Shown here: piece by piece, positions 6,347 through 56,559 of the stretch | Layout: every line of letters begins with the position of its first letter | Numbering within the stretch: the stretch's first letter is position 1 | Assembly: GCA_965200975.1 (NCBI GenBank) | Contig: OZ241740.1 | Location: 1,996,244-2,060,243 of the forward strand | Source: Dehalococcoidia bacterium | GTDB lineage: Bacteria > Chloroflexota > Dehalococcoidia > Lucifugimonadales > Australimonadaceae | Reading direction: 5' to 3' | DNA: 64,000 nt | Notes under the pieces: generated by a model | What the model was told of the DNA's origin: nothing | The model's input: the letters and a program-made list of their open reading frames with translations, nothing else | The model's database searches: none | Position numbers and translations under genes: made by a program

Positions 6347-7285
6347 ATGGCGGATTTGGAGAAGCGCGCACTGGGCCGCACGGGCATCGACATCACCGTT
6401 CTCGGCTACGGCGCGATGGAGCTGCGCGGCGCCCCCCGCGGACGCGATCTGTCGGAGGACGACGCGGGGAGCATCCTCAACGCCGTCCTCGACCTGAGCG
6501 TCAACTTCATCGATACGTCTATCGACTACGGGGTGAGCGAGGAGCGCATCGGGCGCCATATCGCGCGCCGCCGCGGCGAGTACTTCCTCGCCAGCAAGTG
6601 CGGCTGCCTCGTCGGCTGGGAGCCCGATCCCGGGCGCGACCGCGGCGGCCCCCACGTCTACACCAAGGAGAATATCGTCGCGGGGATCGAGCAGAGCCTG
6701 CGGCGCCTGAACACCGACTACATCGACCTGCTCCAGGTGCATATGACGCCGTCGCGGCAGGCGCTGGAGGAGAACGACGTCGTCGGCACGATGACCGAGC
6801 TGCGCGACCAGGGCAAGATCCGGTTCCTCGGAATGTCCGGCGCGATACCCAACCTCGCCGACCATATCGCGATGGGCGCATTCGACGCGTTCCAGATCCC
6901 CTACTCCGCCTCCCAGCGCGAGCACGAGAGCCTCATCTCCGCAGCCTCCGCAGCCGGCGCCGGCGTCATCATCCGCGGCGGCGCGGCGCGCGGAGCCCCC
7001 AGCGGCGATCAGCGCGCCGCCCAGCGCAATCCCGAACTCCTCGACGTCTGGGAGCGCGCCGGGATGGACGAGCTCCTCGACGAGGGGCAGTCCCGCATGG
7101 AGTTCGTCATTCGCTTCACCGAAACGCACCCGGATATGGACACCAACATCGTCGGCACGATCAACCCCGCGCACCTGGAGGCGAACCTCGCCGCCGCCGC
7201 CAAGGGGCCGCTGCCGGCGGACGTGTACGACGAGGCGAAACGCCGCCTCGCCGACGCAGGAACAGCCCCTCAAGCCCTCGCATAA
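6347..7285 (+). CDS. aldo/keto reductase
   Basis: In-frame ATG 6347 within ORF 5945..7285 gives MADLEKRALGRTGIDITVLGYGAMELRG...IDTSIDYG. The upstream part of the ORF reads through repeat DNA. Confidence 0.85.
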   Translation: MADLEKRALGRTGIDITVLGYGAMELRGAPRGRDLSEDDAGSILNAVLDLSVNFIDTSIDYGVSEERIGRHIARRRGEYFLASKCGCLVGWEPDPGRDRGGPHVYTKENIVAGIEQSLRRLNTDYIDLLQVHMTPSRQALEENDVVGTMTELRDQGKIRFLGMSGAIPNLADHIAMGAFDAFQIPYSASQREHESLISAASAAGAGVIIRGGAARGAPSGDQRAAQRNPELLDVWERAGMDELLDEGQSRMEFVIRFTETHPDMDTNIVGTINPAHLEANLAAAAKGPLPADVYDEAKRRLADAGTAPQALA

Positions 7286-7289
7286 CGGC

Positions 7290-8168
7290 ATGACGACCAC
7301 CGTAGGCATCCTCAGCGCAGGCGATATGGGCGCCGCCATCGGCGCCGCGCTCACGGCGGGCGGCGTCGACGTCGCCACGAGCCTCGAGGGCCGCAGCAGC
7401 CTCACCCGTCTGCGCGCGGACGAGGCCGGCATCCGCGACGCGGGAAGCGTCCGCGCGCTCGTCGAGCAGTGCGGCGTACTGCTCTCCGTCCTCGCGCCGT
7501 CGGAAGCCGTCGCGGTGGCGGAGCGCGTCGCCGGCGCGATGGCCGAGAGCGGAGCGCGGCCCGTGTTCGTCGAGTGCAACGCCGTCGCCCCGCAGACAGT
7601 CCAGCGGATCGCCACGCTCATCCTCGATACGGGCGCGCCGGTCATCGACGCGGGAATCATCGGCGCGCCCCCCAAGCCCGGGTCGCGCACGACGCTCTAC
7701 TGCTCCGGCCCCGATACGTCGGCGTTCGAGAAGCTCGGCGAGCACGGGCTCGACATCCGGAACGTCGGGCCGCGCATCGGGCAGGCGTCCGGCCTCAAGA
7801 TGGTGTACGCCGCATCGACCAAGGGGACGACCGCGGTGTGGACGGAGCTGCTGGTGGCGGCGGAGGCGATGGGCCTGAAAGAGGCGCTGCTCGCCGAGTT
7901 CGGCGGCGCGCCCGACCCCGCGCGTCATATGCAGGGCGCCACGGAGATGCCGCGGCGCGCCCGGCGGTGGGTCGGCGAGATGGAGGAGATCGCCGCCACG
8001 TTCGAGCATCTCGGCCTCACCCCCAGAATTCTGCTAGGGGCGGCGGATATGTTCCGCCTCGTGAGCGACACGCCGCTCGCCGACCAGACCTCGCGCGAGC
8101 CCGACCCGGAGCTCGGCGAGATGCTCCGCGTCCTCGCGCTGTGGGCCGCCGGCGCGGCGCGGCCTTAG
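7290..8168 (+). CDS. NAD(P)-binding oxidoreductase, 6-phosphogluconate/3-hydroxyisobutyrate dehydrogenase-like (DUF1932-type C-terminus)
   Basis: ORF 7290..8168 with an N-terminal VGILSAGDMGAAIG Rossmann motif. Confidence 0.65.
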   Translation: MTTTVGILSAGDMGAAIGAALTAGGVDVATSLEGRSSLTRLRADEAGIRDAGSVRALVEQCGVLLSVLAPSEAVAVAERVAGAMAESGARPVFVECNAVAPQTVQRIATLILDTGAPVIDAGIIGAPPKPGSRTTLYCSGPDTSAFEKLGEHGLDIRNVGPRIGQASGLKMVYAASTKGTTAVWTELLVAAEAMGLKEALLAEFGGAPDPARHMQGATEMPRRARRWVGEMEEIAATFEHLGLTPRILLGAADMFRLVSDTPLADQTSREPDPELGEMLRVLALWAAGAARP

Positions 8169-35101: not shown

Positions 35102-35407
35102 ATGGGCATATTCAATCGAGGTAGGCCTAGCCGCCAGTCTCCACCAAAAGCTCCAGGGGAGTATCGGATCCGCGATAAGGATACCGGGAAGATTAAGTAC
35201 ATCGGCGAGACCAACAATCTGAGCCGACGAGTTAAAGAACACAATCGCGGAAGCTTCCCTTCCAAGGATAATGTGGCCGAATGGCAGCGAGCTGACCGCG
35301 ACAGCACATCCCAGGAGCGCCGGCTGCATGAGAAGCGCAAGATTGATCAGCACCAGCCGCCCATGAACCAGCGGCGGGGAGGCGGCGGCAGGATAGCGGA
35401 CCGCTAG
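35102..35407 (+). CDS. free-standing GIY-YIG nuclease
   Basis: PGEYRIRDKDTGKIKYIGETNNLSRRVKEH contains the GIY...YIG...R motifs. Opposite strand to the phage genes; low GC. Confidence 0.8.
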   Translation: MGIFNRGRPSRQSPPKAPGEYRIRDKDTGKIKYIGETNNLSRRVKEHNRGSFPSKDNVAEWQRADRDSTSQERRLHEKRKIDQHQPPMNQRRGGGGRIADR

Positions 35408-35666: not shown

Positions 35667-36842
35667 CTACCCCAAGCCACGCTCTGCGCGCGCCTCCTCG
35701 ACCGTCATGATCCCCGCCCGCACGAGCTCCACCTGACGCCGAGTCCGCTCCGTTTCCGTCTCCGACAACGCCTCAATCGACCCCAGGTCGAACCCTACCC
35801 GCAAGCCTTGCGCCTGCGGCCCCAGCCGCGGCAGCAGGCTCTCGTTCATCGCTCCCGCCAGAAACGTCAGCTCCGGCACAACCGTCTTCTCCCAGAACAT
35901 CCGGCGCGCCTCCCGCACATTGTTCAGCGTCGCGTGCGAGAAGTCCTCCAGCAACGGAAGCGGAACGCCATACACCCGCGCCACTCCCTCCAGCGCCCAG
36001 CGCAACCCCGAAAGCCACTCCATATCCCGCTGGTTCAATCCCAGGCGGTGCACCTCCCAGCCTTCCCCCGTCACTATCGGACGCTGCGCCCGCGACGTCC
36101 CCACGTGCCGCGCCTCCAGCCGCGAATAGAAGTCCGACACCTGATCGTCCGTCACCGGCCCCCGCGCCCGGAACACCAGGTCCTGCGGCTGCGCCCCGTT
36201 GCGGAAGAACTCCCGGTTGAACCGCAGCGCGTCCATCCCCATATCCGCCGTCAAGCGCGCTGCCGCCAGCGGCGCAAACCCGGCATACTCCTCCAGCGGA
36301 TTGAAGTACCGGAACCACACCACTTCCTCCGGAAGCAACGCCGACTCCTGCCCGTTCTCTTCGTAGACGAACCCCGCCACGTAACGCGACGAGTCCCGCA
36401 CCACCCGCACCCGGTCCGGACGCAGCGCCCACAGCTCGTCCGGCGTCCCCGCCCCGCCCTCCGAGCGCCCCAACCGCCAGAACGCCGCTCCCCACAGGCA
36501 CAGGTGCGTCTCCGTCGCAATCAACAGATCGCTCCGGCTCCACCAGCCGTTCACCCGGTCGAGCAGACGCTGCACCGGATGCTCCGGCCCAACCCAACGC
36601 TCGACCCCCGCAGCGTCCGTCCTGCGCACTTGCAACGGCGGACGCGACACCGCCTCCGCCCGCAGCTTCACCGCCGCGTACACGTCGACGCTGCGCGCGT
36701 AGTACTCCCCGTACGCAGACGACTGCCACTCCGGCCCAACCCCCGCGTCGCCCGAAACTCTCCGCAGCGCGGCCGGCGGCCGGCCAGCCCGCGCCTGCGC
36801 TCCCGCATTCCCGCCCAACAGACCACGCAACGTCCCCAGCAT
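35667..36842 (-). CDS. HK97-family phage portal protein
   Basis: In-frame ATG 36842 with RBS GAGGAGGA. ...YGEYYARSVDVYAAVKLRAEAV...LIATETHLCLWGAAFW.... Confidence 0.85.
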   Translation of the reverse strand: MLGTLRGLLGGNAGAQARAGRPPAALRRVSGDAGVGPEWQSSAYGEYYARSVDVYAAVKLRAEAVSRPPLQVRRTDAAGVERWVGPEHPVQRLLDRVNGWWSRSDLLIATETHLCLWGAAFWRLGRSEGGAGTPDELWALRPDRVRVVRDSSRYVAGFVYEENGQESALLPEEVVWFRYFNPLEEYAGFAPLAAARLTADMGMDALRFNREFFRNGAQPQDLVFRARGPVTDDQVSDFYSRLEARHVGTSRAQRPIVTGEGWEVHRLGLNQRDMEWLSGLRWALEGVARVYGVPLPLLEDFSHATLNNVREARRMFWEKTVVPELTFLAGAMNESLLPRLGPQAQGLRVGFDLGSIEALSETETERTRRQVELVRAGIMTVEEARAERGLG

Positions 36843-36897
36843 CGAACATCCTCCTCGCTCATTCCCTCCACCACTTATCCCCGGCGGCAAAGACCTC

Positions 36898-36936: not shown

Positions 36937-37135
36937 CCCAGCCCTCACTATCGCCGCAGCAGCCGCGCCCCGAGCCACGCCCACCAGCTCGCAGCCCATG
37001 CAGCCCCTAGCGCAACAGCCTCCCACGGAAGCCCCAGATAACTCGCCGCCAGAACCGGCGCCAGCGGCGCCGCTCCCAGCGCCGCAAACACCGCGCAAAG
37101 CTCCGCCCCCGCCTTCACTCCGCCCTTCCCTCGAA

Positions 37136-38475
37136 TCACATCCACACCTCCATCGACGGAGGACTCATGAACGCAAGCGCCAGCGCGTCCGCCTTGTCCG
37201 GCGACGGCAGCCCCGCCTTTCGCAACTCCTCCTTGCTCACTAGCCGGATACGTCCTCCGCTCTCGATCCTGTACCGCAACGACAACAGCTGACCAACGAG
37301 CTCCGGGTCGTCCGGCAGCGCAATCTCCTCCTCCGCCATCCGGCGCCGCAACTCCCAGAAGATCTCCGCCCGCAGGTCCTCGAAACGCTCTTTCAGACGC
37401 GCCCGGCCTCCCGCCTGCACGCCGATCACCGGCGCCCCCAACTCCTTCAAACGGTCCACCACGCCGCCGCCGACCCCCGCCTCGTCCACGAACACCGCCA
37501 CCACCTCTTGCGCATTCACCGCCTCGTTCACTTCCGCCGCTATCCGCATCGTGTCCACTCCCCGGTACACCGCCATCCTCTCGACCCGCGGCCCCCGGCG
37601 CAGACACAGCACCGTCTTGTCGTTGCCGAACCGCGCAACGTCCCCCCCCCATAATCAGGAACGCCCCCTCCGAACGGGCGGCTCCCCGCCCCCAGCGCGC
37701 CACTGCCGCGTCCAACTGCTTGCGCGACACCAGCGAGTCGTCCAGAGCCTCGGGAAACTGCCCCAGCACCGCAATCACATACCGGGAGTCGTCCTCTCCC
37801 CACTCCCGCCGGCGCTCATCCACATCCTCCGGAGTCAGCATCCCCGGCACAGCGTCGGGGCGGCCCGCAACCAGGTTCGGCGTGTCGAACGCCGAGATCG
37901 CCACCCGCGAGTACAGCGCGCTCTTCGAGTGATGCGAGTCGTAGAACTCCCCCGTCAGCGACAACGGGTTGCCGGTGAACAGCAGCCGCTTCGGGTTCAG
38001 CCGCTTCAGAGCGTCGAGGTGGCCCTGCCCCACCGCGTGAGCCTCCGTAACCACCACCAGCAACTCCGGCGAGTGAAACCCCTGCAGGTTGTACGGATGG
38101 TCCGTCGCGAACCCCAGCGCAAACCGCTCGTCGTTCACCACGTACTTCGACGCGTGCATCTTCCCGCTCAGGCTTCGGCCAGCCAGCGCATACGCCAGCC
38201 GAAGCTCCCGCCACACCACCTCCTCCACCTGCCGCTGCGTCGGCCCCGTCACGATCGCCTTCGACTGCAAGCGCGTCTCTATCCACCACAGCACTACCCG
38301 GGCCGCAGCCCAGTCCTTCCCCCGATCCGTTGCATCCCACCACCGACACCCGCCGGTTCGCCGCCACTCGCTCCAGCACTTCCGACTGCTTCCCGTACGG
38401 TCTCCCTCCTTCCCCCAGCACATCCTCCACAAACCCCACCGGATCGTCCGCGTACTGCTCCAGCGCCAGCCCCAT
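37136..38475 (-). pseudogene. terminase large subunit, broken by two frameshifts in G-runs
   Basis: Three ORF pieces. 38475->~38322: ..VVGCNGSG. ~38320->37650: KDWAAARVVLWWIE...GFHSPELLVVVTEAH. 37648->37136: DVARFGNDKTV...VFVDEAGVGGG...SPDKADALALAF. Confidence 0.85.
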
Positions 38476-53275: not shown

Positions 53276-53683
53276 ATGAATCCCCTCACCCTCGACGAAT
53301 CCCTCCGAATGCTGACCGCCGGACGCGCCAAAGCCGAGCAGCTCGGCGTGCGCGTCAGCATCGCCGTGCTCGACCCCCGCGGCGACATCGTCGCCCTTCA
53401 CCGTATGGACGGCGCCCTCTGGCGAAGCGTCCCTATCTCTCAGGGGAAGGCTGCCGCCTCCGCCGCATGGGACGCCCCCAGCGGCGACCTCCGCGACCGC
53501 TGGGACCAGCCCGTCGTCCGCGCCCTCTCGATGATGGAGAACGGACGCATCATCCCCTGGCAAGGCGCCCTCCCCGTACGGCGCCCCGACGGAACTATGA
53601 TCGGCGCCATCGGCGTCAGCGGCGCTCGCCCCAACGAAGACGAGGAGGTGGCGGCGGCTGGCCTCGCCGCGCTCGAATCATGA
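53276..53683 (+). CDS. GlcG/HbpS-like heme-binding (DUF336) protein
   Basis: In-frame ATG 53276. ..VSIAVLDPRGDIVALHRMDGA...SQGKAAASA...GAIGVSGARPNEDEE. Confidence 0.8.
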   Translation: MNPLTLDESLRMLTAGRAKAEQLGVRVSIAVLDPRGDIVALHRMDGALWRSVPISQGKAAASAAWDAPSGDLRDRWDQPVVRALSMMENGRIIPWQGALPVRRPDGTMIGAIGVSGARPNEDEEVAAAGLAALES

Positions 53684-54756
53684 CCGAAAGCTTCAAAATC
53701 AAGGAAGAAGACGCCGTCCGCGTCGACCCCGCCCCGCTCCGCGAGGCCGTCGTCGCCCTCTTCGAAAAGGTCGGCGTACCCCCCGAAGACGCCCGCATCG
53801 GCGCCGACGTCATCATCTCCGCCGACCTCCGCGGCGTCGACAGCCACGGCGTCTCCAATATGCTCAAGGTCTACCTCGACCGCTACGCCGACGGAACGCA
53901 GAACCCCACCCCCGACTGGAAGATCGTGCGTGAACGTCCGTCCTCCGCAAACATCGACTGCGACCGCGGACTCGGCATCATCCTCGCCCCCAAGGCGATG
54001 CGCATCGCCATCGAAAAAGCCCGCCACTCCGGCGTCGGCGTCGTCACCCTGTTCAACAGCGGACACGTAGGCATGGCCGCCTACCATGCAATGCTCGCCC
54101 TCGAACACGACATGATAGGAATGTGCATGACCGCCGCCGGCCCCGCCGTCCTCCCCACGTTCGGACGCGTCCCCCGGCTGGGAACCAACCCCATCGCCAT
54201 TGCCGCGCCCGCAGGCGCCGAGCGCGCCTGGGTGTTCGATATGGCCACCAGCGTCGTCCCCGTCAACAAGGTGCGCAACGCCCGCCGAATGGGGACGCTT
54301 CTCCCCCCCGGCCTCATCGCCGACGAGGAAGGGACGCCCATTATGCAGCCCACCCTCGCCCCCGAGAACTTCCAACTCCTCCCCCTCGGAACAGACCGCG
54401 ACGCCGGCTCCCACAAGGGCTACGGACTCGCGGTCGCGGTCGACATCCTCTGCTCCGTCCTTGCCGGCGCCGACTTCGGCATCCGCGCCGGACGCCTCCA
54501 CTTCCGCCACTACGTCGCCGCCTACAACATCGACGCCTTCAGCGACGTCGGCGAGTTCAAGGCTCGCATGGACGACTTCATCCGCGAACTGAACGCCACC
54601 CCGCCGGCGGCTGGCCACGAGCGCGTCCTCGTCGCAGGCCAACCGGAATGGGAAGCGCTCGACGAACGCTCCACCCGCGGCATCCCCCTCCACCGCGACG
54701 TAGTAGAATGGCTCCGCAGCGTCTGCGCCGAACTCAACGTCCCCTGCGAGATCTGA
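53680..54756 (+). CDS. Ldh2-family malate/L-lactate/ureidoglycolate-type dehydrogenase
   Basis: ATGA overlap with the upstream stop. ..ADLRGVDSHGV...LFNSGHVGMAAYH... Confidence 0.85.
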   Translation: MTESFKIKEEDAVRVDPAPLREAVVALFEKVGVPPEDARIGADVIISADLRGVDSHGVSNMLKVYLDRYADGTQNPTPDWKIVRERPSSANIDCDRGLGIILAPKAMRIAIEKARHSGVGVVTLFNSGHVGMAAYHAMLALEHDMIGMCMTAAGPAVLPTFGRVPRLGTNPIAIAAPAGAERAWVFDMATSVVPVNKVRNARRMGTLLPPGLIADEEGTPIMQPTLAPENFQLLPLGTDRDAGSHKGYGLAVAVDILCSVLAGADFGIRAGRLHFRHYVAAYNIDAFSDVGEFKARMDDFIRELNATPPAAGHERVLVAGQPEWEALDERSTRGIPLHRDVVEWLRSVCAELNVPCEI

Positions 54757-54792
54757 AGATCCCCGCCACAGCGCACGCCAAGGAGCGCACCT

Positions 54793-55251
54793 ATGCCCGG
54801 ACTACCAATCCCAGACAGCATGGAAGAACACCTCATCTATATCGGCATGGGAAAGTCTCTCAAAACGCGCTTGGAACAGATCATCAAAGACGTGGACCTG
54901 GCCACTCCAAGCGATATCGACTCCAAAAGCAAAAGGCATCCCGCTGCGACAGAGCGCGTAGCCGTAAAGATGGGATGTCGGCTAGAAGTCTCGTGGGCGG
55001 AGACGGTAAGCCACGACAGTGCAAAAGCTCATAAAGCGGCTCTCATCCATGAGTACGTCAAACAGCACAGCTCCTTGCCGTGGATTGAGAGCCCAGAGGG
55101 GCGCGTTCTCGGCAACCACCAAACTCCAAAACTCCGGCAGGAGCCTGTATCCGACCTCGATTGGTCAGACTGGACTGAGATGCGGGAATCTAACATAGCC
55201 CGCATCCCCGAAAACCCTGGGGTCTACCGCGTTCGAGCGCTATGCCCGTAG
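54793..55251 (+). CDS. low-GC hypothetical protein with degenerate GIY-YIG-like N-terminus
   Basis: PGLPIPDSMEEHLIYIGMGKSLKTRLEQ has the YIG...R spacing of GIY-YIG, with GLP in place of GIY. The C-terminus ends ..IPENPGVYRVRALCP. Confidence 0.5.
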   Translation: MPGLPIPDSMEEHLIYIGMGKSLKTRLEQIIKDVDLATPSDIDSKSKRHPAATERVAVKMGCRLEVSWAETVSHDSAKAHKAALIHEYVKQHSSLPWIESPEGRVLGNHQTPKLRQEPVSDLDWSDWTEMRESNIARIPENPGVYRVRALCP

Positions 55252-55267
55252 CGCACACCTCAGCCGA

Positions 55268-55343
55268 CGCCCTCTGGCGAAGCGTCCCTATCTCTCAGGG
55301 CAAGGCCGCCTGCGCCGAACTCAACATCCCCTGCGAGATCTGA
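55268..55343 (+). repeat. mosaic duplicate: glcG-internal fragment fused in frame to the last 33 bp of ldh2
   Basis: 55268-55310 matches about 53411-53455. 55311-55343 matches 54724-54756 with one mismatch. Confidence 0.9.
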
Positions 55344-55377
55344 CGCGGAACGCAATCTCGCAGCTCCTCAGGAGCTC

Positions 55378-55416
55378 CCCAGGGGGTCTGGGGAAGCGGA
55401 CGCTCTCCCAGCTACG
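55378..55416 (+). repeat. solo REP-like hairpin
   Basis: CCCAGGGGGTCTGGGGAAGCGGACGCTCTCCCAGCTACGCC. Confidence 0.9.
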
Positions 55417-55575: not shown

Positions 55576-56559
55576 ATGAAAGCTGCATGGTATGAGCGGT
55601 ACGGCCCCGCGCGCGAGGTGCTGCAGACCGGCGAACTGCCAGACCCAGAGCCCGCGCCCGGCGAGGCGCTGGTGCGCGTCCGCGCGTCCGGCGTGAACCC
55701 GTCCGACTGGAAGGCGCGCACCGGGTCGCGCGGCCCGCAGATGCCCTTCCCGTTCGTCGTGCCTCACAGCGACGGCGCAGGCGAGATCGTCGCCGTCGGC
55801 CCGGACGTCGACCCCGCCCGCATCGGGCAGCGCGTCTGGCTGTTCGAGGGGCAGTGGCAGCGCCAGTTCGGCACGGCGGCGGAACTCATCGCGCTCCCCG
55901 CCGAGCACGCCGTCCCCCTTCCCAACGGCGTGAGCTTTACCGAAGGCGCCTGCATCGGCATTCCGGCAATGACCGCTCACCGCTGCCTCTTCGCATCCGG
56001 CCCCGTCACCGGCATGACCGTTCTCGTCACCGGCGGCGCAGGCGCTGTCGGGCACTACGCCATTCAATTCGCCAAGTGGGCCGGCGCCGCCGTCATCGCG
56101 ACCGTCAGCTCCGATGAGAAGGCCGCGCGCGCCGTCTCTTCCGGCGCCGACCACACCGTGAACTACCGCGCCGAGGATGTCGCGGCGCGCGTCCTCGACA
56201 TCACCGCCGGCAACGGAGTCGATCGCATCGTCGAGGTCGATTTCGGCGGCAACCTCTCCGTAACCAGGCAGGTGATCGCGCTGAACGGCGCCGTCGGCTG
56301 CTACGCCTCCACGGGCGACCGCGAACCGGCGGTCGAGTACCAGGCCTTCTCCCGCAAGAACGCCACCGTGCATTTCGTGCTCGTCTACTCCGAACCCGAG
56401 GCTGCTAAACGCCACGCGGTCGATGACATCGCCAAGGCGAGCGCCGACAACGCGCTGACGCATCCCGTAGCCGCCGCGATGCCGCTCGAAGAGATCGCCG
56501 CCGCCCACGAACTGCAGGAGAGCAACTCCGCTATCGGCAACATCATCCTCACGTTGTGA
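55576..56559 (+). CDS. NADPH:quinone reductase-like medium-chain dehydrogenase
   Basis: MKAAWYERYG..LVRVRASGVNPSDWK...VLVTGGAGAVGHYAIQ. Confidence 0.85.
   Translation: MKAAWYERYGPAREVLQTGELPDPEPAPGEALVRVRASGVNPSDWKARTGSRGPQMPFPFVVPHSDGAGEIVAVGPDVDPARIGQRVWLFEGQWQRQFGTAAELIALPAEHAVPLPNGVSFTEGACIGIPAMTAHRCLFASGPVTGMTVLVTGGAGAVGHYAIQFAKWAGAAVIATVSSDEKAARAVSSGADHTVNYRAEDVAARVLDITAGNGVDRIVEVDFGGNLSVTRQVIALNGAVGCYASTGDREPAVEYQAFSRKNATVHFVLVYSEPEAAKRHAVDDIAKASADNALTHPVAAAMPLEEIAAAHELQESNSAIGNIILTL

What the first reader, a model, noticed from the sequence alone, without database searches (positions are those of the whole stretch)
54757..55343. Low-GC GIY-YIG-like insertion followed by an in-frame mosaic of two upstream host genes
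Directly after the ldh2 stop lies a ~460-bp low-GC ORF. Its N-terminus has YIG...R spacing (LIYIGMGKSLKTRL) and its last residues read PGVYRVRAL, like the start of another GIY-YIG domain. It is followed by 76 bp made of a glcG-internal piece (about 53411-53455) fused in frame to the last 33 bp of ldh2 (54724-54756, one mismatch). The insertion is thus flanked by a 33-bp direct repeat of the ldh2 3' end. This looks like a repair or duplication scar of a nuclease-associated insertion, and a solo repeat hairpin sits 35 bp further on.
Basis: seen in the sequence. Interest (0 to 1): 0.55.

Follow-up and report, generated by a model that had tools for sequence, protein, structure and literature searches.

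The report
Permuted GIY-YIG gene insertion with repair scar
A small foreign gene sits just after the ldh2 stop codon and was sealed in by a sloppy repair that copied bits of two neighbouring host genes; the gene belongs to an undescribed family in which the GIY-YIG nuclease domain is circularly permuted.

Summary
Window 54757-55343 (587 bp) is an insertion between ldh2 and a Zn-alcohol-dehydrogenase gene. These two genes are 8-36 bp apart in relatives L005, L007 and L008. Independent short-read assemblies reproduce all three novel junctions, so misassembly of the junctions is excluded.

The insert has three parts:
- A compositionally foreign cassette (GC3 0.63 against 0.83-0.87 in the host genes) with its own Shine-Dalgarno site and a 152-aa ORF.
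- 43 nt copied from glcG, 1855 bp upstream.
- A 34-nt duplicate of the ldh2 3' end.

The ORF is full length. It belongs to a rare, unannotated family of about 150-aa proteins that always start with the YIG strand and end with "WSxW...PGVYRIRA". Profile comparison shows the family is collinear with tandem two-domain GIY-YIG proteins, running from the YIG strand of domain 1 to the GIY strand of domain 2. That makes it a circular permutant.

Catalytic residues are degenerate, and the window copy has Lys in place of the metal-binding Glu. The mosaic tail is best read as a non-coding scar of illegitimate repair, by template switching or by duplication followed by deletion. Which enzyme made the break is not known.

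The parts
53276..53683 (+). glcG (HbpS-like) host gene; donor of the 43-nt filler (53413-53455)
   Evidence: Pfam PF03928, E 6.5e-32. Repeat D2. BLAST 53413-53451 against 55268-55306 at 97.4%.
53680..54756 (+). ldh2 host gene; its last 34-37 nt (54720/54723-54756) form the left copy of the direct repeat
   Evidence: Pfam Ldh_2, E 2.2e-104. Repeat D1, 35/37. Both variable positions carry the state seen in relatives.
54757..54792 (+). Cassette leader with Shine-Dalgarno AAGGAG (54780-54785), 7 nt before the ATG. A GGAGCG motif is shared with the leaders of family genes in L056, L057 and L060.
   Evidence: Sequence. Comparison of upstream regions.
54793..55251 (+). ORF152: full-length member of a circularly permuted GIY-YIG-like family. 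YIG strand at residues 14-18, Arg26, Lys81 in the Glu position, WSDW at 124-127, GIY strand (PGVYRVRA) at 142-149.
   Evidence: phmmer gave 41 hits, 21 at E<=1e-10. Alignment A1. AF2 pLDDT 94.6. hhalign A1 against the tandem GIY-YIG alignment A4: probability 98.3%, E 1.2e-14, 133 columns. Re-permuted A2 against P0035: 98.3%, 125 columns. GC3 0.634.
55252..55267 (+). Cassette trailer of unknown origin, up to the junction with the glcG piece
   Evidence: No match elsewhere in the window. AGCGCAC recurs at 54770, 54783 and 55250 (sequence).
55268..55310 (+). Filler copied from glcG 53413-53455, same orientation, 1855 bp upstream. Mismatches at 55301 and 55307.
   Evidence: It shares the lineage-specific CCTATCTCT with the window's glcG but keeps the ancestral GGC where the functional gene now has GGG.
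55310..55343 (+). Right copy of the ldh2 3' end including TGA (one mismatch at 55325), contiguous with the native 3' flank
   Evidence: Junction reproduced in L062-L064.
55242..55343 (+). 33-aa mosaic ORF (MPVAHTSADALWRSVPISQGKAACAELNIPCEI). Judged a by-product of the scar, not a gene.
   Evidence: No such product is on record in the gene collection. No family hit.
55331..55363 (+). Hairpin CTGCGAGAT-N15-ATCTCGCAG formed by the end of the right ldh2 copy and the native 3' flank
   Evidence: Fold. The region as a whole is not more stable than shuffles (z -0.49).
55379..55413 (+). Solo copy of a 35-nt interspersed (REP-like) repeat. It is part of the host spacer, not of the insertion.
   Evidence: At least 11 copies in the window at 94-97% identity.
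55576..56559 (+). Zn-dependent alcohol dehydrogenase gene, the ancestral downstream neighbour of ldh2
   Evidence: Pfam ADH_N / ADH_zinc_N. Adjacent to ldh2 in L005, L007 and L008.

Best explanation
A single-gene cassette of about 511 bp (54757-55267) of foreign composition was inserted at a break immediately after the ldh2 stop codon.

The gene. It encodes a 152-aa protein of an undescribed family that is a circular permutant of the GIY-YIG nuclease domain. The protein runs beta2(YIG)-alpha1-alpha2-beta3-alpha3, then a linker, then the 'WSxW' helix and beta1(GIY). This order is what results if a tandem two-domain GIY-YIG protein is cut between the GIY and YIG strands of both domains.

The canonical active site is degenerate in the family. 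In this copy the Glu is replaced by Lys81 and there is no conserved Asn. The protein is therefore more likely a DNA-binding or otherwise non-canonical derivative than an active homing nuclease. This is inferred.

Expression. The gene has a strong SD and no detectable promoter of its own, so it is probably co-transcribed with glcG-ldh2. This is inferred.

The tail. The 76-bp tail is a non-coding scar of how the break was sealed. DNA synthesis, or joining with almost no homology, went from the cassette to a 43-nt stretch of glcG 1.85 kb upstream. It then went back to ldh2, 34 nt before the point of departure. This duplicated the ldh2 3' end. It is a microhomology-mediated template-switch or filler-DNA type event.

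Shown: the anatomy, the derived state, the foreign composition, the family and its permutation, and the origin of the filler in this lineage.

Inferred: the repair mechanism, the lack of nuclease activity, and the non-functionality of the 33-aa mosaic ORF.
For: - Anatomy and repeats.
- Empty site in relatives.
- Independent assemblies of all three junctions.
- Foreign composition.
- Family: exhaustive phmmer found about 40 relatives, most about 150 aa and aligned end to end.
- Fold confidence: AF2 pLDDT 94.6, pTM 0.88, with secondary-structure order E-H-H-E-H...H-E.
- Permutation, test 1: the native family profile aligns collinearly to tandem GIY-YIG proteins from the YIG of domain 1 to the GIY of domain 2 (probability 98.3%, E 1.2e-14, 133 columns).
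- Permutation, test 2: the artificially re-permuted profile aligns to single-domain P0035 over 125 columns (E 2e-14). The native order aligns over only 36 columns.
- Relatives are true GIY-YIG: P0047 and P0052 pass the Pfam PF01541 cutoff and P0035 passes PF19239. The P0035 model has order E-E-H-H-E-H. Its top four PDB matches are UvrC GIY-YIG 1yd6 (prob 1.00, TMt 0.68), T4 EndoII 2wsh (two chains) and 2lwf.
- Direct PDB sequence search: the family profile's best PDB sequence hit is T4 EndoII, at the YIG-Arg helix (E 0.016-0.022).
- Degenerate active site.
- Age and origin of the filler: it carries lineage-specific bases and one ancestral base that the functional gene has lost, so it was copied in this lineage and not recently.
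- Junction glcG/ldh2 has only 1-4 nt of imperfect microhomology (sequence).
Against: - No donor copy of the cassette is known. The closest relative anywhere is 43% identical. The left and middle junctions therefore cannot be checked for microhomology.
- A two-step history (tandem duplication, then deletion) gives the same end product.
- Foldseek of the ORF152 model found no GIY-YIG structure. This is expected for a permutant with a sequential aligner, so the fold link rests on profile comparison. No non-sequential structure aligner was available.
- The ORF has stayed intact although the scar has diverged by about 4% from its sources. This hints that the gene has a function that I cannot name.
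- 9 of 28 family members keep the Tyr/Arg/Glu/Tyr set, so nuclease activity in some members is not excluded.
Confidence: 0.6

Rival explanations
1. Two-step history. First, a tandem duplication of the segment from inside glcG (about 53413) to the ldh2 stop, with the foreign cassette captured at the new junction. Later, a deletion of about 1.27 kb inside the second copy, from glcG' to the last 34 nt of ldh2', at a short GCC-rich patch.
For: - It gives exactly the observed order and orientation.
- Logan contig L054 runs ldh2 end, ORF152, 32-nt repeat, the rest of glcG, then the ldh2 start. That is the undeleted layout.
- In L057 two family genes alternate with two paralogous upstream genes in a tandem array.
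Against: - After the repeat, L054 carries the functional gene's derived bases (GGG, GCT), not the mosaic's GGC/GCC. It is therefore not the ancestor of the mosaic.
- L054 is a 1.2-kb contig from one run. It can be a chimeric k=31 path through the 32-nt exact repeat, or a recent recombinant.
- This history needs two rare events instead of one.
Confidence: 0.25
2. Homing-type spread. The cassette is a free-standing homing-endonuclease-like gene. Its product, or a related active nuclease in trans, cut at the ldh2 3' end. Repair then copied the gene in and left a duplicated C-terminal piece of the target gene, as seen next to free-standing GIY-YIG/LAGLIDADG ORFs in fungal mitochondria.
For: - The gene is GIY-YIG-derived.
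- The insertion is intergenic, between conserved genes, and absent from relatives.
- The layout host gene, ORF, C-terminal duplicate of host gene matches atp6 and cob in Endoconidiophora mitogenomes (PMC6279837).
- In L057 the P0009 gene is also flanked by a 23-nt, 87% repeat of the upstream gene's 3' end (z 5.8), followed by that gene's native 3' flank.
- A canonical GIY-YIG gene lies in a prophage-like island of the same window.
Against: - The window copy has Lys at the metal-binding Glu, and the family does not conserve the YIG Tyr, Glu or Asn.
- No near-identical copies exist anywhere; the best is 43% identity among 1.8 billion representatives. This is unlike an actively homing gene.
- Flanking repeats are absent in six of the eight contexts checked.
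- The family's usual home is after RCC1-repeat lipoprotein genes, not after ldh2.
- Homing does not explain the glcG filler.
- No hits in phage or plasmid collections, or in PHROGs.
Confidence: 0.12
3. Remnant of a site-specific integrative element. On this reading the 34-37-nt direct repeats are attL and attR of an element that targeted the 3' end of ldh2.
For: Direct repeats of a gene's 3' end flanking foreign DNA are typical of integrase-mediated insertion (established knowledge).
Against: - No integrase or other recombinase is present.
- The element is only 0.55 kb.
- The glcG piece has no place in this model.
- No terminal inverted repeats were found.
Confidence: 0.02
4. Assembly artefact. 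On this reading the mosaic or the insertion is a chimeric join.
For: The 32-nt exact repeat is a branch point in k=31 graphs, and contig L054 takes the other exit.
Against: All three junction sequences occur at 100% identity in independent Logan assemblies from several runs. Only the connectivity across the 32-nt repeat depends on the primary 2.38-Mb assembly.
Confidence: 0.01

Closest known systems
GIY-YIG nuclease superfamily (UvrC N-terminal domain 1yd6, T4 endonuclease II 2wsh, I-TevI; Pfam PF01541, PF19239, PF20815)
   Same: - Homologous by profile comparison through bona fide members.
- Keeps the GIY strand (PGVYRVR), the YIG strand (LIYIG), the Arg helix (KTRL) and the beta3-alpha3 unit.
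- Has the same set of secondary-structure elements.
   Different: - The order of elements is rotated: YIG comes first and GIY last, preceded by a WSxW helix.
- The metal-binding Glu is E/K/R in the family and Lys in this copy.
- The Asn is not conserved, and the YIG Tyr is often Asp or Trp.
- ORF152 itself matches no Pfam GIY-YIG model at E<=1.
Tandem two-domain GIY-YIG proteins found here (P0047-P0053, about 290 aa; P0040) and single-domain P0035, all with a WxxW motif before the GIY strand
   Same: They are the closest relatives. ORF152 is collinear with the stretch from the YIG of domain 1 to the GIY of domain 2, including the linker and the WxxW motif.
   Different: - Those proteins keep the invariant G, Y, R, R, R, E and N of the catalytic set and have the canonical order.
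- The ORF152 family has its own conserved start (M..LTIAESV.E.LVYIG) and its own stop just after GVYRIRA.
[quoted passage not shown]
   Same: The layout is the same: an intact host gene, then GIY-YIG-type ORF(s) in the spacer, then a duplicate of the host gene's C-terminal end.
   Different: - This case is a bacterial chromosome.
- The duplicate is only 34 nt.
- An extra filler from a second gene is present.
- The ORF is a permuted and probably inactive derivative.
- No evidence of homing was found.
Microhomology-mediated template switching or filler DNA at break-repair junctions (FoSTeS/MMBIR-type events; from established knowledge, not tested here)
   Same: - Short templated pieces from nearby sequence, in the same orientation.
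- A short duplication at the rejoining point.
- Junctions with 1-4 nt of homology.
   Different: The main inserted piece is a whole foreign gene whose source is unknown. The mechanism is inferred from the product only.
Circular permutation by duplication and truncation (the model proposed for permuted DNA methyltransferases and other families; from established knowledge)
   Same: Tandem-domain relatives exist, and the permuted protein equals an internal, phase-shifted slice of them.
   Different: A full-text search of the paper library found no paper linking circular permutation to GIY-YIG. The 2006 superfamily survey does not contain the word 'permut'.

Membership tests
GIY-YIG nuclease superfamily | Detectable homology to accepted members | tested here: met
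   - hhalign of family against A4: probability 98.3%, E 1.2e-14.
- A4 members P0047 and P0052 pass the PF01541 cutoff and P0035 passes PF19239.
- The P0035 model's top PDB hits are UvrC 1yd6, EndoII 2wsh and 2lwf.
- 5, 4 and 2 of 28 family members touch PF01541, PF19239 and PF20815, all below cutoff.
GIY-YIG nuclease superfamily | ORF152 itself reaches a curated family threshold | tested here: not met
   - Pfam: only DUF7508 at E 0.056, 14 bits against a cutoff of 26.
- No hits in NCBIfam, PHROGs or PADLOC.
GIY-YIG nuclease superfamily | Canonical topology: N-terminal beta1(GIY)-beta2(YIG) hairpin followed by alpha1, alpha2, beta3, alpha3 | tested here: not met
   - In ORF152 the YIG strand is at residues 16-20 and the GIY strand at 143-150.
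- P0035 has the canonical order.
- The native profile matches P0035 over only 36 columns, and the re-permuted profile over 125.
GIY-YIG nuclease superfamily | Catalytic set: Tyr (GIY), Tyr (YIG), Arg, Glu (metal ligand), Asn | tested here: not met
   - ORF152 has Y145, Y16 and R26, but K81 in the Glu column and E99 in the Asn column.
- Family counts: Glu column E14/K11/R3; YIG Tyr Y17/D5/W3; Asn column variable.
- 9 of 28 members keep Y-R-E-Y.
GIY-YIG nuclease superfamily | Nuclease activity | not testable with these tools
   Needs purified protein and DNA substrates.
Free-standing homing endonuclease gene | Intergenic insertion between conserved genes that are adjacent in relatives | tested here: met
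   ldh2 and ADH are adjacent in L005, L007 and L008. The window has the insert.
Free-standing homing endonuclease gene | Recent spread: near-identical copies at the same site in other genomes, or presence/absence polymorphism among strains | tested here: not met
   - Only the source genome and its own population (Logan contigs at 100% identity) carry it.
- The next relative is 43% identical.
- No empty-site allele with an identical ldh2 was found.
Free-standing homing endonuclease gene | Product cleaves the insert-less target site | not testable with these tools
   The degenerate active site argues against it.
Transposon / insertion sequence | Transposase gene, terminal inverted repeats and a short target-site duplication | tested here: not met
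   - No transposase is present.
- No terminal inverted repeats at 54757/55267 or 54757/55309.
- The duplication is 34 nt and is accompanied by a filler from glcG.
Integrase-mobilised element inserted in a gene's 3' end | Recombinase gene and att core repeats bounding the element | tested here: not met
   Direct repeats are present. There is no recombinase in the 0.55-kb insert, and the glcG piece is unexplained.

The most novel reading that the evidence does not exclude
The permuted GIY-YIG family is a still-mobile selfish gene of uncultured Chloroflexota. Its normal target is the 3' end of RCC1-repeat lipoprotein genes. Its insertions, normal or ectopic as here, are made by a break-and-copy route that duplicates the 3' end of the target gene. 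This would be a bacterial counterpart of the fungal mitochondrial 'HEG plus C-terminal duplication' pattern, run by a nuclease fold with rotated topology. On this reading contig L054 would reflect ongoing tandem amplification or circle formation through the 32-nt repeat.
Probability: 0.12. Interest if true: 0.7.

Novelty: new variant of a known kind. Interest (0 to 1): 0.5.

Why it matters
At the level of the locus this is an ordinary though unusually legible repair scar. It records, base by base, how a bacterial chromosome sealed a foreign gene into a break: a filler from a gene 1.85 kb away, plus a 34-nt duplication.

The more interesting result concerns the gene itself. It belongs to a small, unannotated protein family that appears to be a natural circular permutant of the GIY-YIG nuclease domain. 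Tandem-domain relatives show the likely evolutionary route.

Neither a full-text search of the paper library nor the 2006 superfamily survey turned up a permuted GIY-YIG domain. The fold matters for homing endonucleases, for UvrC/Slx1 repair enzymes and for engineered nucleases.

The permuted family has also relaxed its catalytic residues and keeps a tight linkage to secreted RCC1-repeat lipoprotein genes. This points to a new, non-canonical role that could be tested.

Tried and rejected
- Word-indexed protein search with ORF152 and later with P0035 returned only the queries themselves. The exhaustive phmmer search was needed.
- The search for related loci with the family alignments failed for lack of a conserved 7-10-residue stretch.
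- A degenerate P-x-x-PGVYR[IV]RA DNA pattern in IMG/VR gave three unrelated hits.
- No family match was found in phage or plasmid records, PHROGs, PADLOC or NCBIfam.
- Tested whether flanking duplication of the upstream gene's 3' end is a general hallmark of the family. It is significant only in the window (z 16.9) and at L057/P0009 (z 5.8), and absent in the other six contexts. It was therefore rejected as a rule.
- Tested whether L054 is the undeleted ancestor of the mosaic. This was rejected because L054 carries the functional glcG's derived bases.
- Looked for the conserved downstream 17-mer of other family loci in the window. It is absent.
- No promoter or intrinsic terminator was found in or around the insert.
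- The 33-aa mosaic ORF has no record as a called gene and no family hit.
- No empty-site allele with an identical ldh2 was found.
Full report

Yes. ldh2 (53680-54756, Pfam Ldh_2, E 2e-104) ends with TGA at 54756. After a 36-nt leader carrying AAGGAG 7 nt before the ATG comes a 152-codon ORF at 54793-55251.

The ORF has GC 0.556 and GC3 0.634. glcG, ldh2 and the downstream ADH gene have GC3 0.83-0.87.

Downstream of the ORF there are two host-derived pieces:
- 55268-55306 matches glcG 53413-53451 at 38/39.
- 55310-55343 matches the last 34 nt of ldh2 at 33/34.

The blastn-short E-values against the whole window are 4.8e-14 and 4.6e-11.

Read without gaps, the glcG-derived piece is 55268-55310 and the ldh2-derived piece is 55310-55343. 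The two parental sequences overlap in a 4-nt patch (55307-55310) where each matches 3 of 4. The junction therefore has 1-4 nt of imperfect microhomology and keeps both reading frames.

A copy of a 35-nt interspersed repeat, with at least 11 copies in the window, lies at 55379-55413.

**2. Is it derived, and is it an assembly artefact?**

A scan of one genome per species found 52 loci encoding ldh2 relatives, nearly all Dehalococcoidia/Chloroflexota MAGs. In L005, L007 and L008 (77-84% identical ldh2) the stop codon is followed within 8-36 nt by the start of the same Zn-alcohol dehydrogenase that lies at window 55576-56559. The insertion is therefore derived.

Independent short-read assemblies support the junctions:
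- Logan contig L053, seen in six runs, equals window 53416-55297 at 100%.
- Contigs L062-L064, from three runs, start at 55271 and run through the glcG/ldh2 junction into ADH.

These contigs stop only inside the 32-nt exact repeat, as k=31 graphs must. All three novel junctions are therefore independently assembled. Only the path across the repeat depends on the primary 2.38-Mb contig.

One 1.2-kb contig from another run (L054) leaves the repeat the other way, going from ORF152 into the rest of glcG and then into ldh2. After the repeat it carries the functional gene's derived bases (GGG, GCT) rather than the mosaic's GGC/GCC. It is therefore either a chimeric graph path or a recent recombinant. 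It is not the ancestor of the mosaic.

**3. What is the ORF?**

The word-indexed search of 5.8 billion proteins found only the ORF itself. An exhaustive phmmer search of 1.84 billion cluster representatives found 41 proteins at E<=0.001, of which 21 had E<=1e-10. Most are 138-168 aa and align from residue 3-5 to the last residues.

The 28-sequence alignment A1 shows:
- a conserved start (M..LTIAESV.E.LVYIG);
- a conserved core (AEK.A...G..LEVSWAET...SA..EAALI.AY...HG.LPGF...G.WV.GN);
- a conserved end (L.WS.W.P......IP..PGVYRIRA, followed by 1-5 residues and the stop).

ORF152 is therefore an intact member of a real family, not a fragment. AlphaFold2 with this shallow alignment gives one compact domain with mean pLDDT 94.6 and pTM 0.88. 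The element order is E16-20, H23-35, H52-59, E63-70, H74-92, a small hairpin, H132-137 and E143-150.

**4. The circular permutation**

Two weaker hits, P0035 and P0040, have the same motifs in the other order: WSDW...PGVYRVR first, then IVYVG..SLRRRL.

Evidence that these relatives are GIY-YIG proteins:
- P0035 passes Pfam's threshold for PF19239 (GIY_YIG_domain).
- The approximately 290-aa relatives P0047 and P0052 pass PF01541.
- The alignment of these canonical relatives (A4) has invariant G, Y, R, R, R, E and N, which is the catalytic set.
- A4 also shows that the 290-aa proteins carry two tandem domains, each preceded by a WxxW motif.

I ran three tests of the permutation:
- I moved the last 34-ish residues of each family member to the front (alignment A2). 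That profile aligns to P0035 over 125 columns (hhalign probability 98.3%, E 2e-14). The native order aligns over only 36 columns.
- The native family profile aligns collinearly to the tandem proteins. The alignment runs from the YIG strand of domain 1, through the inter-domain linker and the WxxW motif, to the GIY strand of domain 2 (133 columns, probability 98.3%, E 1.2e-14).
- A model of P0035 (pLDDT 78) has the canonical order E-E-H-H-E-H. Its top four PDB matches are the UvrC GIY-YIG domain 1yd6 (prob 1.00, TMt 0.68), two chains of T4 endonuclease II 2wsh, and 2lwf.

The family profile's best PDB sequence hit is also T4 EndoII, at the YIG strand and Arg helix (E 0.016-0.022).

Foldseek with the ORF152 model finds nothing. 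This is what a sequential aligner does with a permuted small domain. I could not run a permutation-aware superposition, so the fold assignment rests on profile homology.

The tandem relatives show the likely route, which is duplication followed by truncation at both ends.

**5. Is it a nuclease?**

Doubtful for this copy. ORF152 keeps Y145 (GIY), Y16 (YIG) and R26. It has Lys81 in the column of the metal-binding Glu and no Asn at the canonical place.

Across 28 members the columns read as follows:

| Column | Residues |
|---|---|
| Glu (metal ligand) | E14 / K11 / R3 |
| YIG Tyr | Y17 / D5 / W3 |
| Asn | variable |
| Y-R-E-Y all kept | 9 of 28 members |

The best-conserved residues are structural, or lie in the WSxW...GVYRxR segment.

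Three longer members add a C-terminal region. Two of them (P0014, P0031) were scanned, and the region weakly resembles an OGG-like glycosylase domain, below cutoff. This keeps a DNA-related role plausible. No phage, plasmid, defence-system or NCBIfam family matches the family.

**6. Where does the family normally live?**

In the contexts I could read (L055-L060, seven gene copies), the gene sits directly downstream of a secreted lipoprotein gene. These lipoproteins have Pro/Thr-rich linkers, usually RCC1 repeats and often an Rv1352-like domain. In L055 the repeats are seen at DNA level and are not in the called frames, and L056 has no RCC1 repeats. L057 has two such pairs in tandem.

The gene is always 4-12 GC points below its surroundings. 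L061 is too short to judge.

The window copy is the exception, because it sits behind ldh2 with no such partner. No other family member or RCC1 motif occurs in the window. The window copy is therefore an ectopic insertion, which shows that the gene can move. However, nothing more than 43% identical to it exists in the collections, so this is not a recently spreading element.

**7. How was the mosaic made?**

The glcG piece shares this lineage's private bases (CCT ATC TCT) with the window's glcG. It also keeps GGC where nearly all relatives have GGC and the functional gene now has GGG. It was therefore copied from this genome's own glcG, and long enough ago for the copies to differ at about 3 of 76 positions.

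The right ldh2 copy is contiguous with the native 3' flank, with which its last 9 nt form a hairpin. The left copy is contiguous with the gene.

In effect, 553 nt (cassette plus glcG filler) are inserted with a 34-nt duplication of the target.

I consider a single illegitimate repair event the most economical reading. In it, the cassette is joined or copied at a break after the stop codon. A switch to glcG 1.85 kb upstream follows, for 43 nt. A second switch then returns to ldh2, 34 nt before the break.

The same product arises from a tandem duplication of glcG'-ldh2 with the cassette at the junction, followed by a 1.27-kb deletion. I cannot separate these two histories with the data at hand.

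A homing-type origin is possible but weakly supported:
- The layout 'gene, GIY-YIG ORF, C-terminal duplicate of the gene' is known from fungal mitochondria (PMC6279837).
- A similar 23-nt repeat flanks P0009 in L057 (z 5.8).
- However, six other contexts lack such repeats, and the active site is degenerate.

Integrase or transposase models fail for lack of the enzymes and of terminal repeats.

The 33-aa in-frame ORF is most simply a by-product. The fusion lies in a GCC-rich, codon-periodic patch, and the ORF has no relatives.

**8. Comparison with what is known, and verdict**

The locus works like a break-repair scar with filler DNA. Its anatomy resembles free-standing homing-endonuclease insertions that carry a C-terminal duplication of the host gene.

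The protein is homologous to the GIY-YIG superfamily. It fails three defining features, which are the order of the GIY and YIG strands, the catalytic Glu/Asn, and curated thresholds. I therefore file it as a permuted derivative rather than as a member in good standing.

A full-text search found no paper linking circular permutation to GIY-YIG. The 2006 survey of the superfamily does not contain the word 'permut'.

- **Novelty:** new variant of a known kind.
- **Interest:** 0.5. The scar itself is ordinary. The permuted, catalytically relaxed GIY-YIG family and its linkage to RCC1 lipoprotein genes are the parts worth following up.

Noticed in passing
window 35102-35407 (+), with 35667-36890 (-) and 36948-38432 (-): A canonical 101-aa GIY-YIG ORF (Pfam PF01541, 32.2 bits; GC3 0.66) lies next to a phage portal gene (PF04860, E 1e-65) and a large ORF without a Pfam hit that may be a terminase. 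The region 33-36 kb has GC 0.59-0.62, so it looks like a prophage-like island with a free-standing GIY-YIG gene.
   Followed up: partly
window 1849, 2120, 3503, 4630, 6138(-), 14642, 14888, 15544, 36897, 55379, 62323: A 35-nt interspersed repeat, CCAGGGGGTCTGGGGAAGCGGACGCTCTCCCAGCT, has at least 11 copies at 94-97% identity. Some occur in pairs about 250-270 bp apart. It is a REP-like element of this genome. The copy at 36897 extends to 51 nt.
   Followed up: partly
L054 (Logan SRR33991080, 1200 bp), against window 54537-55317 and 53410-53881: This contig joins ORF152 through the 32-nt repeat to the rest of glcG and into ldh2. It is either a chimeric k=31 path or a tandem-duplicated or circular variant made by recombination between the two repeat copies.
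   Followed up: partly
L057 1087-5456: Tandem array of RCC1 lipoprotein (501 aa), P0009, RCC1 lipoprotein (500 aa), P0002. The 5' 300 nt of the two lipoprotein genes are 94% identical, while the two permuted GIY-YIG genes are only 45% identical. P0009 is flanked by a 23-nt, 87% repeat of the RCC1 gene's 3' end, followed by that gene's native 3' flank.
   Followed up: partly
L056 2075-2091, L059 5470-5486, L060 5472-5488: The 17-mer TGTGACACCCGCCCCTT lies 9-19 nt after the stop of the family gene in three loci and nowhere else in 61 loci. L056 and L060 share about 190 nt of downstream sequence, ending in ...GAATGAGAAGAAATGAGACACTTTTTTCG, that looks much better conserved than the ORFs, which are only 49% identical at the protein level. 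The element is absent from the window.
   Followed up: partly
window 54782-54798 against 55235-55248; also 54770, 54783, 55250: The two ends of the cassette share GAGCGC[ACC]TATGCCCG, so the ATG of ORF152 and the ATG of the 33-aa mosaic ORF lie in the same 9-mer CTATGCCCG. AGCGCAC occurs three times near the ends. This may be chance or a trace of how the cassette was cut out.
   Followed up: no
window 55331-55363: The last 9 nt of the right ldh2 copy (CTGCGAGAT) pair with ATCTCGCAG 15 nt downstream. The native ldh2 3' end therefore carried a hairpin that the insertion has separated from the functional gene.
   Followed up: partly
L032 about 7200-7300 and L055 2457-2569: Tandem arrays of 11-12-nt units (TTTGCGACAC... 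after ldh2 in L032; TGGCCTCATTT... after the family gene in L055) occur in intergenic spacers of related Chloroflexota genomes.
   Followed up: no
P0014, P0029, P0031 (376-413 aa): Some family members carry a C-terminal extension of about 230 aa after the GIY strand. In the two that were scanned (P0014, P0031) it weakly resembles an OGG-like DNA glycosylase domain (PF21790, best E 9.5e-5, below cutoff). P0010 and P0019 carry an N-terminal CxxC...CxxC extension.
   Followed up: no
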